A DNA stretch of 64,000 nucleotides from an uncultured Brachyspira sp. (GTDB lineage Bacteria > Spirochaetota > JAAYUW01). The DNA lies in the NCBI GenBank assembly GCA_964581895.1, contig CAZOPR010000002.1, positions 254,185-318,184 on the forward strand, given 5' to 3'. The position numbers were made by a program, and so were the translations under genes. The number at the start of each line of letters is the position of its first letter. The stretch's first letter is position 1. The notes under the pieces are model-generated. The model saw nothing but the letters and a program-made list of their open reading frames with translations, was not told the DNA's origin and did no database searches. This document shows positions 29,162 to 45,359 of the stretch, in pieces.

Positions 29162-29273
29162 GCTCGAAAAAGAACAAAAAAAAAGAACTAAAAGAAGAAA
29201 TAAAAAAAATTAAGTAAAGAAATAAAAAAAGATATAAAAAAAAGAAAAAAAAGAAATAAAAATAAGGAATTTT

Positions 29274-39439: not shown

Positions 39440-40264
39440 ATGGAAAAAATAAAATTTGCATTTTTGTTTTTCATTTTAGTTTTACCTTTATCTTTATTCT
39501 TTAATTTTGGGGCAAAAAATTTTTCAGATAATTTAATTTATGAAAGAAAAGTATATTTTTCAATCCAGTCATTTCAAAATGATAAGGCTTTTGAAAGGTA
39601 TTTAGGATTTTTGAAAAACAACAAGATAAGTGGAATAACATTTTATGGACTTCATAAAAAACTTGAGGTTAGTCCATCGGTAATTTTCGCAAAATTGAAA
39701 AATGAGATACCAGAAATTCAGATATTTATAGCAGGAGACAACTTTGATTTTTTCAATACTTTAAATGAAGATAAGAACTTGATGCAATATGTAGATGGAT
39801 TTCATATTGAGTATGAATACTGGAATTATTACAAATATAAGAAAAAAGATAGAAACGATGCTTTCAATTATTTTATAGAAGAATCAAAAAAAATTAAAAT
39901 TCTTACCAATGAAAATAAGAAAAAATTTGAAGCATATTTTGGATGGTTTAACGATGAAGAAGCAAAAAGTTTTTTACCTTTTTTTGATTCTATTTTACTT
40001 CATTCATACACGAATCAGATACAAAAAACAGGGCAATATATATTTGAAAGATTGTTGACTTTAAGTAAAATAGACTCCCAAATCCCCTGGTTTATACTAT
40101 GCTCAGCAGAAAAAGATTTTATGGAACAAACCTTAAAAGAGTACGGCCTATTTAATTTAGAAAAATTGATTCTTGAAAATATAAAACCAAGCTTTGATTA
40201 TTTAAAAAATTTTAAAGGATTTTACTGGTTTACTGGTGAGCTAGTCGAAAAAGCAATAAGATAG
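39440..40264 (+). CDS. Hypothetical secreted protein
   Basis: Signal peptide; no recognised domain. Confidence 0.3.
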   Translation: MEKIKFAFLFFILVLPLSLFFNFGAKNFSDNLIYERKVYFSIQSFQNDKAFERYLGFLKNNKISGITFYGLHKKLEVSPSVIFAKLKNEIPEIQIFIAGDNFDFFNTLNEDKNLMQYVDGFHIEYEYWNYYKYKKKDRNDAFNYFIEESKKIKILTNENKKKFEAYFGWFNDEEAKSFLPFFDSILLHSYTNQIQKTGQYIFERLLTLSKIDSQIPWFILCSAEKDFMEQTLKEYGLFNLEKLILENIKPSFDYLKNFKGFYWFTGELVEKAIR

Positions 40265-40333: not shown

Positions 40334-43075
40334 TTATCTTGTCTTAAATCCTTTCCTTTTCATCATTCCCCAGGAGCTTTTGCCTATAAGGTTATTGAAA
40401 TATGCTACTAATCTAAGAATATTCATTAACTGTCGATATCCGAAATTTTCAACAAGTCCAATAAGTATTAAAATTATATCTTCATACCAGGCAAAATATA
40501 TTACATTTTTTTCAGAAATTGCTAACGATAGGATAGATAAAACAATCCCAAGCAAGATGCTTGTCAAAAAAAGAAATAAAAATAAAGGTAAGGTAAAAAT
40601 CCCTAAAAATATTGCTAAGATAGAAAAGAAAAGTCCCATAACCTCATAAAAAGGTCCAAGAGTTTCAAAGATAAGATAATAAGGAAGGGCTACTACGCCA
40701 ACTCTGCCATAATTTTTATTAAAAATCATCTTTCTATGATATAAAAGGATTTCAATAAGTCCTCTTTGCCACCTATCTCTTTGTTTTTTAAGTATCTTAA
40801 AAGATTCTGGAACTTCAGTCCAGCAAGTGGCATTTATCGAATAGTTAACTGCTTTTTCCTCTTTATTTTCCAACGCATATCTTCTTAGTCTAACTATAAG
40901 TTCCATATCCTCGCCAACAGTATTTTGTCTGGCAGAAGTTCGAAATGTCATATATCCACCGATTTTTTGAACTGCTTTTCTTTCAAATACTCCAAAAGCA
41001 CCAGAAATAATGAGTAAAGATTTTATAAAAGCCCAGCCAAGTCTTCCAGTAAAATATGCCCTTAGGTATTCCATTGTTTGAAATTTTGCAAGTAGATTCT
41101 TGCCTATCCCTATTTTGATCAGTGAACCATTTTCAACTTCACAGCCATTTACTGGCATTATTTTTCCACCAGTTGCAATAATTTTTTCATCACTTTCTAT
41201 GATTGGTGAAATGGCATATAAAAGTGCATCCTGTTCTAAAAGACTATCCGCATCTATGCCACATATATACTCACCATTTGCTAAATTTATACCAGCATTT
41301 AATGAATCTGCTTTTCCACCATTCAATTTGTCAATGACAAAAAGATTTGAATGTAACCTGCTTTTATACACACCAATTATTGACGCTGTGCTTATATGTT
41401 GAGGCATAATTTTAAATGGAATTCTTTCAAGTTCAAAATTTTCTTTTAACACATTCAAAGTATTATCTGGTGATCCATCATTTACAACAATTACTTCGAA
41501 ACTCGGGTATTTAAGTGCAAGCAGGCTTCGAACATTTTGCACAATAGTTGCTTCTTCTCTAAAAGCAGGGACTATAACTGAAATTGAAGGTAAAACCCCT
41601 TTTTGGAAATAATTTAAGTATGAAATAGAATATTTTAGTTTATTTTGTCTTGATATTTCAAGATTTGCAAAAAATAAAAAAAGAATAGATATTGAATTTA
41701 ATGTTAAAGCATAGTATCCAAAAAACTTTATGTAAAAAACTATAAAAGATTTTAACCAGGGTAAAAATGGGAACAAACTTTCTTTTTTAATTAAACAAAA
41801 TATCAAAATTGGTGCTAAAAATAATGCTGCTGCAAGAGCAATAAGGAAAGGTCTATCCTTTTTAGAAGCTTCTGGTGCTTTTTGAGCTTCAACTTTTTTC
41901 TTTGGTGGGAAATTGTGTCTTTGGCATATTTCATCGTTAAGTGAAAAGGTAAATTCTTCAAATATTTTAATCCTTTTTTCATAATCAGGTTTCTTAAAAT
42001 TAACAATATCAAGAACCTGAACAATTTTTAATATTAAGATCTCCTCTATCTTTTTATCTTCATTACTATTTAAGTATGAGACTATGTTGTAGATTAACCC
42101 ATTTTTGATACAATACTCTAATAAATCATTTACCTTTTCATTCAAAAACCAATCTTTTATATCTAAAAAATAATATAGATAACTTTCAAGGATAAAAGCT
42201 AATTTATCTTTAATAGAAGTTTCACCTGTCTTAAAAAAAATTTCTATCAATTTATCCTTAAATTCATCGTTATTTTTAGTTGCATTTTCTAAAGCAGCCA
42301 AAGCATATTGTTCATTTTCTGGTTCACCCAAAAATTGCAAAATTCTATGGAAATTATCAACATTTTGAACCCTACCAAGAGCTTTAATGGCAAATTCTCT
42401 TATTTCATTATTTTTATGCCTTAAAAAAAATTGTGAATTAAGCATTGATGGAACAATATGATAGATAACACTTGCAGCCTCGGAAGAAAGATCCTTATCT
42501 TCTGACATTAATGATTCAACAAGTATTTTTTCAAGTGATGAAGATGGGAAATATATACATAGTCTAATCCCTATAATTGTTTCAGCCTTATTGTATGGAT
42601 ATCTTGAGGAAATAATATTGGCTGTAATATCAGGATATTCCTGTAAGATTGCAATATATTGAGTAAATCTACTTATGTTCCCACTTTCATACTCTTTAGC
42701 TGCACTATCCAGGATTAAAGGTATCAAATCGTAACTTTGAGAAAAAAGAAGGGATTCACAGATCTTAAATCTTATCGAACTGGACTTTTCAACTACTAAA
42801 AAACCAGAAAGAATCTGTACACCTTCAAAACCATAAAATCTCAAAGAAAATGCAGCATTTGCTCTTTTGATTTTGCTTTTTGACTTTATCTGATGGACAA
42901 GCTTCTTAAAAAGTCTCGATTTTTTTTGAGTGTAAAATTCTATATTTTTTAATTCTATAGGTAAAACTATTCTTTCACTGCATATATTTAAGGCTGTAAT
43001 TAAAAGAGATTCTGGGAATTTATTGAAGATATTTTTTTCTTTTTTTCTTAAAACTCTGTATATTTGTTTCGTCAA
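40334..43075 (-). CDS. Family-2 processive glycosyltransferase with N-terminal HEAT-like repeat region (polysaccharide synthase-like)
   Basis: GT2 motifs VIVPAFREE, VVNDGSPDNT, GIDADS, QRDRWQRG (QxxRW); TM segments flank the catalytic domain; TTG first codon immediately follows an in-frame TAA. Confidence 0.7.
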   Translation of the reverse strand: MTKQIYRVLRKKEKNIFNKFPESLLITALNICSERIVLPIELKNIEFYTQKKSRLFKKLVHQIKSKSKIKRANAAFSLRFYGFEGVQILSGFLVVEKSSSIRFKICESLLFSQSYDLIPLILDSAAKEYESGNISRFTQYIAILQEYPDITANIISSRYPYNKAETIIGIRLCIYFPSSSLEKILVESLMSEDKDLSSEAASVIYHIVPSMLNSQFFLRHKNNEIREFAIKALGRVQNVDNFHRILQFLGEPENEQYALAALENATKNNDEFKDKLIEIFFKTGETSIKDKLAFILESYLYYFLDIKDWFLNEKVNDLLEYCIKNGLIYNIVSYLNSNEDKKIEEILILKIVQVLDIVNFKKPDYEKRIKIFEEFTFSLNDEICQRHNFPPKKKVEAQKAPEASKKDRPFLIALAAALFLAPILIFCLIKKESLFPFLPWLKSFIVFYIKFFGYYALTLNSISILFLFFANLEISRQNKLKYSISYLNYFQKGVLPSISVIVPAFREEATIVQNVRSLLALKYPSFEVIVVNDGSPDNTLNVLKENFELERIPFKIMPQHISTASIIGVYKSRLHSNLFVIDKLNGGKADSLNAGINLANGEYICGIDADSLLEQDALLYAISPIIESDEKIIATGGKIMPVNGCEVENGSLIKIGIGKNLLAKFQTMEYLRAYFTGRLGWAFIKSLLIISGAFGVFERKAVQKIGGYMTFRTSARQNTVGEDMELIVRLRRYALENKEEKAVNYSINATCWTEVPESFKILKKQRDRWQRGLIEILLYHRKMIFNKNYGRVGVVALPYYLIFETLGPFYEVMGLFFSILAIFLGIFTLPLFLFLFLTSILLGIVLSILSLAISEKNVIYFAWYEDIILILIGLVENFGYRQLMNILRLVAYFNNLIGKSSWGMMKRKGFKTR

Positions 43076-43280
43076 TTATTATAATTTCATCTTCTTTTGG
43101 CTCTTTATTTACATATTCATATGCAATATTAGCTATTTTTTTTACAAGAATATTGATTGTTTTAGTTTTTCTCTTTTCTTTATATTTAATATAGAAAAGG
43201 GATAAAATAGATAAAATAATGAGAAAGCTAATAAAATATATTGAAATAAATAATATATTTAGCGAATTAAATATTTTCAT
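43020..43280 (-). CDS. Small membrane ORF, possibly the true N-terminus of the GT2 synthase separated by a frame break in an A7-G-A7 tract
   Basis: N-terminal TM helix; 56-nt overlap with GT2 ORF in +1 frame across 43032-43046. Confidence 0.35.
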   Translation of the reverse strand: MKIFNSLNILFISIYFISFLIILSILSLFYIKYKEKRKTKTINILVKKIANIAYEYVNKEPKEDEIIIIDETNIQSFKKKRKKYLQ

Positions 43281-43287
43281 ATTTTTC

Positions 43288-44235
43288 TTAAATACTTGAA
43301 CTTATAAAAATTCTTATAATTGAGAGAAGTTCATTTATAAAATATGGCTTTTTTATGAAATAATTTATCCCTAATAAAGATGCTGTTTTAAGTAGATCAT
43401 CATTTTTTTGGGTGCTTAATATTATCAAAGGGATATTTATATCCTCTTCTAAAAGTTTTTGTCTTAAATCAAAGCCTCCATATCCAGGGGCTGCAAGTTC
43501 GGAAATAATGCATATTGGATGAGAACTTTTTAATTTTTCGTAGGCAAGTTTACCATCTCTAAACCAGACACAATTTATCTTGTTTTGTCTTAAAATATCT
43601 ATAACTATAGCTGCATTAAAAGGATCTGGTTCGACAAGGAAAATTTCAGGAGTTTCATAAATTTCTGAAGCATTTGCCAATATTACCTTCGAGTTTGTAT
43701 CAGGTTTTTGTTCTGAAAACAAGTTATTAAATTTACTTAAAAAATGTTCCCTAATCGACTTCCCTTCTTCAATATTTAATAGACAATTTTGAACTGAAAA
43801 AATATAAATATTTGATTCTAAAAAAGAAGATAAAATAGATTGATTTAATTCATAAATAAAAAGATTAGATTTTGCCTTTATTTCAGATATAGAGTCTGCA
43901 AATGAAAATAATATAATACCACTATTATAAAAAAAAATTGGAGAAAAAGGGATTAGTGTATTAAAAATTATTGTATTAAGCTCATTTTTTATTTCATTAA
44001 CATTAATTTTATGATCTGTTTTGTTTACTAAAAAGATATACAAAAGATATACATCTATTTCATATTCATCAATCAGTCGAATAAGATGCTCTAAAAAATT
44101 GAAATTATCTAAAAAAGTAAGAAATTTATTTTTATCATTTACTAAAAATTTTTTATCAAGTTCATATTTTATGATATTTTCTTTCAATCTTTGATTTTCT
44201 TTTTCAAGTTGAAAAATATTTTTTTGTTTTCTCAT
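43288..44235 (-). CDS. Receiver-like domain protein with Glu at the phospho-acceptor position and N-terminal coiled coil
   Basis: C-terminal REC-like layout IFLVEPDP ... ICIISELAAPGYGGFDL ... PLIILST ... FIKKP. Confidence 0.5.
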   Translation of the reverse strand: MRKQKNIFQLEKENQRLKENIIKYELDKKFLVNDKNKFLTFLDNFNFLEHLIRLIDEYEIDVYLLYIFLVNKTDHKINVNEIKNELNTIIFNTLIPFSPIFFYNSGIILFSFADSISEIKAKSNLFIYELNQSILSSFLESNIYIFSVQNCLLNIEEGKSIREHFLSKFNNLFSEQKPDTNSKVILANASEIYETPEIFLVEPDPFNAAIVIDILRQNKINCVWFRDGKLAYEKLKSSHPICIISELAAPGYGGFDLRQKLLEEDINIPLIILSTQKNDDLLKTASLLGINYFIKKPYFINELLSIIRIFISSSI

Positions 44236-44375: not shown

Positions 44376-45098
44376 CTATAATTTTACAACTAAGGCAAAA
44401 CCAATATCCAAAAATCCAGCTTTATTGAAAAAATAAGGTTGAAAATAAGCGCCAACTGAAAAAATCGGGAAATTGAATTTAATACCAATTAAACAGGACA
44501 AATTAAAAAGGCTTTGCTCTATAGCAAAACTTACCCCTAAATCCATTCCAAAAATCTGAAAGAAAGCAAGATAAGATTTCATCCATAGTGCATAGGAGAT
44601 ACCTTTACCAGTTTCGTAACCGATAGCAGAATTTACAAAAAAGTTATAACCATTTGGGAAATTATAAATCGAGTAAATATAGCTAATAGAAGAGAAAAAA
44701 TCAGGGCTAAATTTCAGTATTTGTCTGAAGGCGAGATACCATTCATTTTTCTCAAAGTTGACACTTAATAAAATTTCATGCCTATCTATTTTATCTGTAA
44801 AATAAAAACCATACATAAAGTCGATATACCAACTTTTAGGGAAGATAAATGTCCCACCAAGCATTATTTTATAACCAGTATCACTTTCATAATAATATGA
44901 ATAACCAAAAAGAGCAGATAAAGCAAAAAAATTCGAGATTGGAAAAGATAAAGATTGATTTAATCTTCATTGAGAAAGGTTAGAATCATCTAAGCTCATA
45001 TCAAATTCAGTTGAAATCCAGATTTTTGGGGAAGCAAAAAGTGGAAGACTAAAAAAACATAGTACGATAAATAATATAAATAATTTTCTATTTTTCAT
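44376..45098 (-). pseudogene. Outer-membrane beta-barrel-like gene interrupted by in-frame TGA (minus-strand codon at 44967-44969)
   Basis: Signal peptide ORF MKNRKLFILFIVLCFFSLPLFASP... is in the same frame as the 162-aa ORF starting at 44864; single TGA between them. Confidence 0.45.
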
Positions 45099-45223
45099 AG
45101 CAAGAATATAATAAAAATAAGCTTATTTGTCAACTTTAGAAGTTTAAAAACTTTATTAATTCTTCATTAAAGTTTTTAACAGTAAAAGTCAAAATTTATC
45201 TTATTTGTTTCATTTATAGATTT

Positions 45224-45260
45224 AATAAAAAACCAAGCCTGTCAAGATAACAGGCTTGGT
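45224..45260 (-). terminator. Rho-independent terminator downstream of tRNA-Pro
   Basis: 9-10 bp stem ccaagcctg / caggcttgg with 9-nt loop, followed on the minus strand by T6. Confidence 0.55.
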
Positions 45261-45286
45261 AAAAGGAGGTAAATTATGAAAAAAAG

Positions 45287-45359
45287 TCGGAAAGAGGAGA
45301 TTTGAACTCCTGACCCCATGGTCCCGAACCATGTGCGCTACCATCTGCGCTACTTTCCG
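45287..45359 (-). tRNA. tRNA-Pro (anticodon CGG)
   Basis: 73-nt cloverleaf: acceptor CGGAAAG/CTTTCCG, D-arm GCGC-AGATGGTA-GCGC, anticodon arm CATGG-TTCGGGA-CCATG, T-arm AGGAG-TTCAAAT-CTCCT; CCA not encoded. Confidence 0.85.

What the first reader, a model, noticed from the sequence alone, without database searches (positions are those of the whole stretch)
43020..43075. Frame break inside an A7-G-A7 tract between the small TM ORF and the GT2 synthase
The synthase ORF begins with a TTG that is the very first codon after an in-frame TAA and has no convincing RBS. The upstream 86-aa ORF (TM helix) stays open in the +1 frame through a 56-nt overlap that contains AAAAAAAGAAAAAAA (minus strand; T7-C-T7 at 43032-43046 on plus). 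Loss of one A would fuse the two into a single TM-HEAT-GT2 protein. This could be a homopolymer sequencing error, slipped-strand phase variation, or transcriptional slippage.
Basis: seen in the sequence. Interest (0 to 1): 0.65.

Follow-up and report, generated by a model that had tools for sequence, protein, structure and literature searches.

The report
Frameshifted polysaccharide synthase gene, 8-bp deletion
A membrane sugar-polymer synthase gene of an Exilispira-like spirochaete is split in two because one copy of an 8-base repeat (GAAAAAAA) is missing compared with the closest relative, and together with a stop codon in a neighbouring gene this looks like ordinary gene inactivation rather than a special decoding mechanism.

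Summary
An 86-aa ORF (43280..43020, minus) and a 913-aa TTG ORF (43075..40334, minus) overlap by 56 nt across A7-G-A7 (43046..43032).

The two ORFs are the halves of one gene. Every relative recovered encodes a single 979-985-aa protein, or 1185 aa with a fused receiver domain: N-terminal TM helix, basic linker, alpha-helical repeat domain, PgaC-like GT2 synthase.

The lesion is probably not a lost single A. The closest relative (87% aa) has (GAAAAAAA)x3 where the window has x2. Adding one 8-nt unit gives 984 aa and the same KKKRKKEKNIF junction.

A JGI metagenome contig with one substitution over 9 kb carries the same split, so a one-off assembly error is unlikely.

The first gene of the same operon has an in-frame TGA (44969..44967) where three relatives have TGG-Trp. 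TGA is a normal stop in this window.

There is no conserved two-ORF arrangement, no stimulatory RNA structure and no start codon other than an accidental TTG. The commonest slippage event (+1 A) would not rescue the frame.

Best reading: a recent, real, slipped-strand 8-bp deletion that inactivates the synthase in a decaying exopolysaccharide operon. Reversible phase variation or leaky rescue cannot be excluded, but nothing supports them. Low interest.

The parts
43020..43280 (-). 86-aa ORF. This is the N-terminal fragment of the synthase gene: TM helix at about residues 3-33, a basic/acidic linker, then an out-of-frame tail 'YLQ*'.
   Evidence: aligns to residues 1-~83 of the 984-985-aa orthologues; hydrophobic segment 3-33.
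40334..43075 (-). 913-aa ORF. This is the C-terminal fragment: alpha-helical repeat (HEAT-like) domain, two TM helices, a PgaC/IcaA-like GT2 catalytic domain (DAD, GEDME, QRDRW motifs) and C-terminal TM helices.
   Evidence: Pfam: PF00535, PF13641, PF13632. NCBIfam PgaC_IcaA at 115 bits, below its 422-bit cut-off.
43032..43047 (-). (GAAAAAAA)x2 tandem octanucleotide, the site of the frame break. The closest intact orthologue has x3.
43073..43078 (-). In-frame TAA (43078-43076) followed by TTG (43075-43073), the nominal start of the 913-aa ORF. The TTG lies across the conserved Ile-Asp codons (ATT GAC) of the original reading frame, so it is accidental.
   Evidence: The next in-frame start codon is TTG at codon 78.
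43288..44235 (-). 315-aa protein with a C-terminal response-regulator receiver domain. It is the second gene of the operon, intact, and ends 8 nt before the synthase ATG. In a distant clade it is fused to the synthase.
44376..45098 (-). First gene of the operon: 240 codons, signal-peptide-like N-terminus, no family hit. It is interrupted by the in-frame TGA listed separately at 44967-44969.
44967..44969 (-). In-frame TGA replacing the conserved Trp codon (TGG) of the first operon gene.
   Evidence: L001 and L011 have TGG at the DNA level and L002 has W in the protein. TGA ends 12 of 48 long ORFs, so it is a normal stop here.
45105..45133 (-). Best promoter-like site of the region (TTGACA-17-TATATT, 11 of 12 matches), directly upstream of the first gene's ATG. 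This is a consensus match only.

Best explanation
This is a genuine frameshift mutation. One unit of a short tandem octanucleotide repeat, (GAAAAAAA)x3 to x2, was lost, most likely by slipped-strand mispairing during replication. The repeat encodes the Lys/Arg-rich linker between the N-terminal membrane anchor and the helical-repeat domain of a roughly 984-aa PgaC-like processive GT2 polysaccharide synthase.

Translation from the gene's true ATG (43280) now ends after 86 residues. The remaining 913 codons have no evolved start, so little or no full-length synthase should be made.

The same three-gene operon (secreted or outer-membrane-like protein, receiver-domain protein, synthase) also carries a nonsense codon in its first gene. 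The locus therefore appears to be switched off and starting to decay in this strain.

Shown: the gene is single and intact in all relatives; the difference from the closest one is 8 nt; a second assembly has the same sequence; the second lesion exists. Inferred: the mutational mechanism, the loss of function, and that the loss is recent.
For: Relatives have one intact gene.
- Six lineages (L001, L002, L003/L011, L004/L009, L010, L005-8/L015) encode one intact ORF of 979-985 aa, or 1185 aa with a fused receiver domain (L004/L009 is cut by its contig end at 960 aa). The two window ORFs align collinearly to it.

The difference is one repeat unit.
- L001 reads AAG-A7-G-A7-G-A7-TATCTT and the window reads AAG-A7-G-A7-TATCTT.
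- Tandem Repeats Finder reports period 8, 3.2 copies, 100% matches in L001.
- Restoring one unit gives 984 aa with no stop and the junction KKKRKKEKNIF, the same as in P0002.

The sequence is reproduced elsewhere.
- JGI contig Ga0495054_004389 differs by a single substitution in 9 kb and has the same 86-aa and 913-aa split.
- The 86-aa product is on record from NCBI, JGI and Logan.

The operon has a second lesion.
- TGA replaces a conserved Trp in gene 1, and TGA is a standard stop here.

The N-terminal anchor is conserved.
- 35 of 37 full-length representatives of the wider family have a hydrophobic helix near the N-terminus, usually followed by K/R residues.

Nothing suggests an alternative way of making the protein.
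- The TTG at 43075 is the only in-frame start before codon 78, and the same ATTGA sequence is present in intact L001.
- There is no RNA structure (MFE z = +0.9).
- The two-ORF arrangement is absent from all relatives.

The lesion is recent.
- There are no further stops in 2.9 kb. Window-unique residue changes number 20, against 16 for the sister lineage.
Against: - No read-level data could be inspected. The two assemblies might derive from the same or related samples, since they differ by one substitution in 9 kb.
- About half of the genes in this genome lack an SD, so initiation at the TTG cannot be dismissed on RBS grounds.
- The coding sequence downstream of the break shows no excess of damaging changes. 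That fits a recent lesion, but it fits a still-used gene equally well.
- Two lesions in one operon is suggestive, not statistically strong. The chance is roughly 0.08-0.2, depending on the gene set used for comparison.
- A repeat that lost a unit can regain it, so 'permanently dead' is not proven.
Confidence: 0.62

Rival explanations
1. Reversible phase variation. The (GAAAAAAA)n repeat and/or the A7 runs act as a contingency locus that switches the exopolysaccharide synthase between ON (x3, in frame) and OFF (x2) by slipped-strand mispairing. The sequenced population happens to be OFF.
For: - A perfect tandem repeat lies at the break, and the two states seen (x3 in frame, x2 out of frame) differ by exactly one unit.
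- Surface-polysaccharide synthesis genes are classic targets. S. aureus switches PNAG production off and on by gain or loss of a TTTA unit in icaC (PMC4117637).
- The downstream coding sequence is undamaged.
Against: - No variation is seen within a lineage. Both records of the window's strain are x2.
- All 12 distinct 984-aa variants of the sister species have the same in-frame junction.
- Two to three units, or A7 runs, are short for a high-frequency switch.
- More distant relatives encode the linker with imperfect, non-repetitive A-rich sequence, so the repeat is not a conserved device.
- The nonsense codon in gene 1 is not a reversible-switch type of lesion.
Confidence: 0.15
2. Leaky rescue by recoding. 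RNA-polymerase slippage on the A7 tracts (net -1 or +2 A) or +1 ribosomal slippage on AAA-AAA yields some full-length 981/982-aa synthase, so the gene remains partly functional.
For: - Two A7 runs lie in the 56-nt overlap.
- Net -1, +2, -4 or +5 nt all restore the frame.
- Slippage on A/T runs is documented and can restore disrupted ORFs (PMC1088944).
- The organism is very AT-rich.
Against: - Selection against slippery runs becomes evident at about 9 nt in a large proportion of the bacterial genomes analysed, with 8 productive in a few. These runs are 7.
[quoted passage not shown] A single +1 A leads to a 93-aa dead end.
- There is no stimulatory RNA structure and no SD-like element.
- The two-ORF layout is not conserved in any relative, which is the usual hallmark of programmed recoding.
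Confidence: 0.07
3. Functional split gene. The 86-aa membrane-anchor peptide and the 913-aa protein, initiated at TTG 43075, are both made and together or separately still give an active synthase.
For: - An in-frame TTG exists.
- Many genes here lack an SD.
- The break falls in a low-confidence, variable linker between the first helix and the helical-repeat domain (pLDDT 34-42 at residues about 59-85 of the model; variable sequence). The folded domains are therefore left intact.
Against: - The TTG lies across the Ile-Asp codons (ATT GAY) of the original reading frame, and the same ATTGA sequence is present in the intact relative L001. It is inside a translated upstream ORF and has no SD.
- The N-terminal TM helix is covalently attached in 35 of 37 distant family members and in all close ones.
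- No relative is split.
Confidence: 0.08
4. Sequencing or assembly artefact. The true genome has an intact gene, either x3 or one A fewer.
For: - The region is low-complexity and A-rich.
- No reads could be inspected.
- The two assemblies are nearly identical and may not be independent.
Against: - The difference from the intact relative is a clean 8-nt unit, not the ±1 nt typical of homopolymer errors.
- The same sequence is in a JGI contig that begins with a transposase-adapter-like sequence, suggesting Illumina data, and the 86-aa product is on record from NCBI, JGI and Logan.
- There are 200 other homopolymers of 7 or more in the window, and its ORF map looks otherwise clean.
Confidence: 0.06

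Closest known systems
Frameshift-disrupted genes (young pseudogenes) created by slipped-strand loss of a short tandem repeat unit
   Same: Two overlapping ORFs are collinear with one intact orthologue. The indel equals one repeat unit. The lesion is lineage-specific. There is a second disabling mutation in the same operon.
   Different: Loss of function has not been shown experimentally, and the rest of the gene shows no decay yet.
icaC tetranucleotide (TTTA) repeat phase variation of PNAG synthesis in Staphylococcus aureus (PMC4117637)
   Same: Gain or loss of one unit of a short intragenic tandem repeat shifts the frame of a gene in a PgaC/IcaA-type polysaccharide locus and switches production off.
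   Different: In S. aureus, reversibility and variation among isolates were demonstrated. Here neither is seen. The unit is 8 nt with only 2-3 copies, and the affected gene is the synthase itself.
Transcriptional-slippage rescue of frameshifted genes at poly(A) runs (Thermus thermophilus dnaX; genes with disrupted ORFs at 9A/9T runs; PMC1088944)
   Same: An A-rich homopolymer lies at the junction of two overlapping ORFs in an AT-rich genome.
   Different: The runs are 7 nt rather than 9 or more. The required change is -1 or +2, not the common +1. The arrangement is not conserved in homologues.
PgaC/IcaA poly-beta-1,6-GlcNAc synthases (TIGR03937) and related processive membrane GT2 synthases (BcsA, NodC, chitin and hyaluronan synthases)
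   Same: GT2 fold domains are present, with D/DxD, (G)ED and Q(R)xRW motifs, and the catalytic domain is flanked by TM helices.
   Different: The score is far below the equivalog cut-off (115 against 422 bits). The protein has an extra roughly 470-residue N-terminal module (TM helix plus alpha-helical repeat domain). It is partnered with a receiver-domain protein instead of PgaABD or IcaDBC. The polymer made is unknown.

Membership tests
Frameshift-disrupted single gene (pseudogene candidate) | Both ORFs align collinearly, without overlap, to one orthologous protein | tested here: met
   the 86-aa ORF matches residues 1-~83 and the 913-aa ORF matches the rest of the 984-985-aa proteins.
Frameshift-disrupted single gene (pseudogene candidate) | Orthologues in related genomes are single intact ORFs | tested here: met
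   979-985 aa in four lineages (L001, L002, L003/L011, L010); an unbroken 960-aa reading frame cut by the contig end in L004/L009; 1185 aa with a fused receiver domain in L005-8/L015; 12 sister-species variants are all 984 aa.
Frameshift-disrupted single gene (pseudogene candidate) | A defined indel explains the break | tested here: met
   one GAAAAAAA unit is missing, and restoring it gives 984 aa.
Frameshift-disrupted single gene (pseudogene candidate) | Loss of the full-length product or function | not testable with these tools
   Needs proteomics or a phenotype. Indirect support: the only start is an accidental TTG, and there is a second lesion in the operon.
Phase-variable contingency locus (slipped-strand mispairing) | Simple sequence repeat inside the coding region whose unit number sets the frame | tested here: met
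Phase-variable contingency locus (slipped-strand mispairing) | Repeat number varies among closely related strains or within a population | tested here: not met
   The window and JGI contig L014 are both x2. All 12 sister-species variants have the same in-frame junction peptide. Sampling of the window's own species is minimal: two near-identical records.
Phase-variable contingency locus (slipped-strand mispairing) | Reversible ON/OFF switching at elevated frequency | not testable with these tools
   Requires culture and amplicon sequencing.
Programmed recoding (ribosomal frameshift or transcriptional slippage) | The two-ORF arrangement and slippery site are conserved among homologues | tested here: not met
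   no relative has overlapping ORFs. More distant relatives have non-repetitive A-rich sequence at the site.
Programmed recoding (ribosomal frameshift or transcriptional slippage) | Slippery sequence of adequate length and correct direction | tested here: inconclusive
   The A7 runs are below the roughly 9-nt length at which selection against slippery runs is evident in many genomes. Rescue needs -1 or +2, and +1 A gives a 93-aa product. [quoted passage not shown]
Programmed recoding (ribosomal frameshift or transcriptional slippage) | Stimulatory element (downstream structure or upstream SD-like sequence) | tested here: not met
   MFE -9.9 kcal/mol, z = +0.90, and 162 of 200 shuffles fold at least as well. 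No GGAGG-like sequence is visible upstream.
PgaC/IcaA poly-beta-1,6-GlcNAc synthase (TIGR03937) | Score at or above the curated equivalog cut-off | tested here: not met
   115.2 bits against a cut-off of 422.3.
Processive membrane-embedded GT2 synthase (general class) | GT2 domain with DxD and Q(R)xRW motifs, flanked by TM helices | tested here: met
   (PF00535, PF13641, PF13632); the translation shows GIDADS, GEDMEL and QRDRWQRG; hydrophobic segments.

The most novel reading that the evidence does not exclude
The perfect (GAAAAAAA)n repeat that arose in the Exilispira lineage is a working contingency locus. Gain or loss of one 8-nt unit, possibly helped by low-level RNA-polymerase slippage on the A7 runs, reversibly switches an uncharacterised receiver-domain-regulated exopolysaccharide synthase. 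That would be phase variation of matrix production in a bacterium whose relatives come from environmental samples.
Probability: 0.12. Interest if true: 0.4.

Novelty: new member of a known kind. Interest (0 to 1): 0.18.

Why it matters
The main value is for annotation. The 86-aa ORF carries the source name 'low temperature requirement protein LtrA' in one record, and the 913-aa TTG ORF is named a glycosyltransferase. They should be annotated together as one frameshifted gene. The upstream 162-aa ORF should be annotated as the tail of a nonsense-interrupted 240-codon gene.

Biologically, this strain has probably lost the polymer made by the operon, which matters for any biofilm or aggregation phenotype attributed to it.

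The case also shows that a break in an A-rich tract should not be assumed to be a 1-nt homopolymer event. Here the comparison points to a whole 8-nt repeat unit. Nothing in the evidence calls for a new mechanism.

Tried and rejected
- TGA read as Trp (code 4) as an explanation for the gene-1 stop: rejected. 12 of 48 long ORFs end in TGA and the window's genes are intact under table 11.
- Independent start for the 913-aa ORF: only the accidental TTG exists before codon 78, and there is no SD. Absence of an SD is uninformative here, since about half the genes lack one.
- Stimulatory RNA structure: none. Rfam finds only tRNA-Pro in the window.
- More same-species alleles: the genome contigs and metagenome-contig scans returned only other species. 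Look-ups for P0001, P0011 and P0012 were unavailable. P0010 and P0014 in the clusters are unrelated short fragments.
- Relaxed-selection test: window-unique substitutions 20 against 16 in the sister lineage, so there is no signal.
- AlphaFold model: overall poor (pLDDT 55, six-sequence alignment). It was used only to show that the junction lies in a low-confidence linker next to a well-predicted all-helical domain. No fold search was run on it.
- PDB sequence search: only short generic GT2 N-terminal matches.
Full report
**1. Observation**

On the minus strand, an 86-aa ORF runs from ATG 43280 to TAA 43022-43020. A 913-aa ORF begins at TTG 43075-43073, immediately after an in-frame TAA at 43078-43076. 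The two overlap by 56 nt (43020-43075). The overlap contains A7 (43046-43040), G (43039) and A7 (43038-43032).

The tract alone is not unusual. The window is 26.9% G+C, has 200 A or T runs of at least 7, and has a second A7GA7 at 29237.

**2. What the two ORFs are**

A search with the fused translation found a small family, with named hits from Exilispira sp.. Full-length members:
- P0002: 984 aa; 86% identity to the fused query, 86.6% in the alignment.
- P0003: 985 aa.
- P0004: 984 aa.
- P0005: 960 aa, cut by a contig end.
- P0006: 1185 aa, with the upstream receiver domain fused on.

The 86-aa ORF aligns to the first ~83 residues: a TM helix followed by a charged linker. The 913-aa ORF aligns to everything after that. 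Genomic loci for all of these, and two further MAG loci (L010, 979 aa; L011, 984 aa), show one uninterrupted ORF starting at the ATG of the TM helix.

Pfam and NCBIfam place the C-terminal half among processive GT2 synthases. The best match is PgaC/IcaA at 115 bits, far below its 422-bit cut-off. DAD, GEDME and QRDRW motifs are visible in the translation.

An exhaustive profile-free search with the N-terminal 470 residues of the 913-aa ORF found 64 representatives at E up to 0.001. Many of them are 930-1020 aa long. Of the 37 longer than 900 aa, 35 have a strongly hydrophobic helix within the first 70 residues, usually followed by K/R residues.

The architecture TM helix, basic linker, alpha-helical repeat domain, TM helices, GT2, TM helices is therefore deeply conserved. 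The window's split is unique among everything recovered.

**3. The lesion**

At the DNA level the closest relative (L001) reads …TTCAAG-AAAAAAA-G-AAAAAAA-G-AAAAAAA-TATCTT…. The window reads …TTTAAG-AAAAAAA-G-AAAAAAA-TATCTT….
- Tandem Repeats Finder scores the L001 tract as period 8, 3.2 copies, 100% matches.
- Re-inserting one GAAAAAAA unit into the window gives an open 984-codon gene, the same length as P0002, with the same junction peptide KKKRKKEKNIF.
- More distant relatives encode the same-length Lys/Arg linker with imperfect A-rich sequence. The x3 length is therefore ancestral and the window's x2 is derived.

A single clean loss of one 8-nt unit is more parsimonious than a 9-nt deletion plus a 1-nt error. 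It is also not the signature of a homopolymer miscall.

**4. Real or artefact**

The exact 86-aa product is on record from NCBI, JGI and Logan. A JGI metagenome contig (Ga0495054_004389, 13.4 kb) has the same 86-aa and 913-aa gene pair. Over 9 kb it differs from the window by one substitution, at 43821. Its first bases look like a transposase adapter, which suggests Illumina data.

The window's ORF map looks clean apart from this operon, despite 200 long homopolymers. I could not inspect reads, and the two assemblies may not be fully independent. I leave about 6% for an artefact.

**5. A second lesion in the same operon**

The ORF listed upstream as 162 aa (44864..44376) is the tail of a 240-codon gene starting at ATG 45098. 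That gene has a signal-peptide-like N-terminus. Its codon 44 is TGA (44969..44967), where L001 and L011 have TGG and L002 has Trp in the protein alignment. TGA terminates 12 of 48 long ORFs in the window, so the code is standard.

The middle gene (315 aa, receiver domain) is intact. The flanking genes that could be compared with L001 and L011 are also intact: uvrB, the convergent 274-aa gene, and the MacB-type ABC transporter genes. Two of the three operon genes are thus disabled. This is suggestive of operon inactivation, but it is not statistically decisive.

**6. Tests of the recoding and split-gene ideas**

*Start codons.* The only in-frame ATG, GTG or TTG before codon 78 of the 913-aa ORF is the TTG at 43075. 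It lies across the conserved Ile-Asp codons (ATT-GAC) of the original reading frame, and the same ATTGA sequence is present in intact L001. It is therefore accidental. Lack of an SD is uninformative, because about half of the window's genes lack one.

*RNA structure.* The 161 nt around the junction fold no better than shuffles: -9.9 kcal/mol, z = +0.90. Rfam finds nothing there.

*Direction of the shift.* The frame is restored only by a net -1, +2, -4, +5 or +8 nt. A single extra A gives a 93-aa dead end.

*Published slippage data.*
- Selection against slippery A/T runs becomes evident at about 9 nt in a large proportion of the bacterial genomes analysed, with 8 nt productive in a few (PMC1088944).
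- Transcription insertions in homopolymers are mostly single nucleotides, and deletions are rarely tied to homopolymers (PMC5574713).
- Designed or efficient rescue is therefore unlikely. A trace of full-length product cannot be excluded.

*Conservation.* No relative has the two-ORF layout, which would be the key signature of programmed recoding.

**7. Phase variation**

The mutational mechanism is almost certainly slipped-strand mispairing on a tandem repeat. This resembles the TTTA-unit switch in S. aureus icaC that turns PNAG production off and on (PMC4117637).

Membership in that class requires observed variation and reversibility. Here both records of the strain are x2, and all 12 distinct full-length variants of the sister species have the same in-frame junction. 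The repeat has only 2-3 units, and the operon also has a nonsense mutation. I give reversible switching about 15%.

**8. Age of the lesion**

There are no other stops or frameshifts in the 2.9-kb gene. At positions where the other four lineages agree, the window has 20 unique residue changes against 16 for L001. There is no sign of relaxed selection. The lesion is therefore recent, or the gene is still used. These data cannot separate the two possibilities.

**9. Structural context**

An AlphaFold model of P0002, built from a six-sequence alignment, is poor overall (pLDDT 55). It predicts:
- a long N-terminal helix (residues 7-58);
- a low-confidence segment at residues 59-85, which contains the junction;
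- a confidently all-helical repeat domain from about residue 90 to 460.

The break thus lies in a flexible linker. That is why a split protein is conceivable, but nothing supports it.

**10. Verdict**

The finding is real and correctly located, but it is an ordinary frameshift-disrupted gene. The cause is loss of one 8-nt repeat unit, not one A. It is probably inactivating, and it sits in an operon that carries a second disabling mutation. Novelty is low: a new member of a known kind. The chief practical consequence is corrected annotation, and the expectation that this strain does not make the operon's polysaccharide.

Noticed in passing
window 44967-44969 (minus), within gene 45098..44376: In-frame TGA where three relatives have Trp (TGG at the DNA level in L001 and L011). 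The annotated 162-aa ORF (44864..44376) is the tail of a nonsense-interrupted 240-codon gene with a signal-peptide-like N-terminus and no Pfam or NCBIfam hit.
   Followed up: yes
L005-L008 and L015 (P0006, 1185 aa), compared with window 43288-44235 plus the synthase: In a more distant clade (55% identity) the upstream receiver-domain protein is fused in frame to the synthase. This Rosetta-stone fusion suggests that phosphorylation of the receiver domain regulates this uncharacterised PgaC-like synthase.
   Followed up: partly
window 40334-43280 and proteins P0025-P0086: There is a wider, apparently uncharacterised family: 64 representatives at 50% clustering, many of them 930-1020 aa. The architecture is N-terminal TM helix, roughly 400-residue alpha-helical repeat (HEAT-like) domain, then a PgaC-like GT2 domain. 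No solved structure matches beyond generic GT2 N-termini.
   Followed up: partly
window 39440-40264 (+): A convergent 274-aa gene with a hydrophobic N-terminus is syntenic next to the synthase in L001, L004 and L011 (279-321 aa). It has no Pfam or NCBIfam match and may be a polymer-processing partner.
   Followed up: no
window 45105-45133 (minus) and ATG 45098: The best sigma-70-like match of the region (TTGACA-17-TATATT) ends 6 nt before the first gene's ATG, and no SD is present. The operon's mRNA may be leaderless. This is a consensus match only.
   Followed up: no
window 43821 compared with L014 position 1528: This is the only substitution (T in the window, A in the JGI contig, minus-strand reading) across 9 kb between the window and JGI contig Ga0495054_004389. 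It lies in the receiver-domain gene. The first ~20 bases of the JGI contig look like residual transposase adapter.
   Followed up: partly
L010 (DYJT01000037.1) and L011 (CAYVTU010000001.1): MAG records titled Brachyspira murdochii and 'uncultured Brachyspira sp.' carry this Exilispira-type locus with the same gene order. The taxonomic labels of these MAGs may be loose.
   Followed up: no
window 43020-43280: In the protein collection the 86-aa fragment carries the source name 'low temperature requirement protein LtrA'. That name fits neither the Pfam scan of the repaired full-length protein, which shows no LtrA match, nor the fragment's alignment to the synthase N-terminus.
   Followed up: partly
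window 45286-45359 (minus) and 45232-45260: tRNA-Pro (CGG) followed by a strong terminator-like hairpin (13 pairs plus a T run), lying between uvrB and the polysaccharide operon.
   Followed up: no
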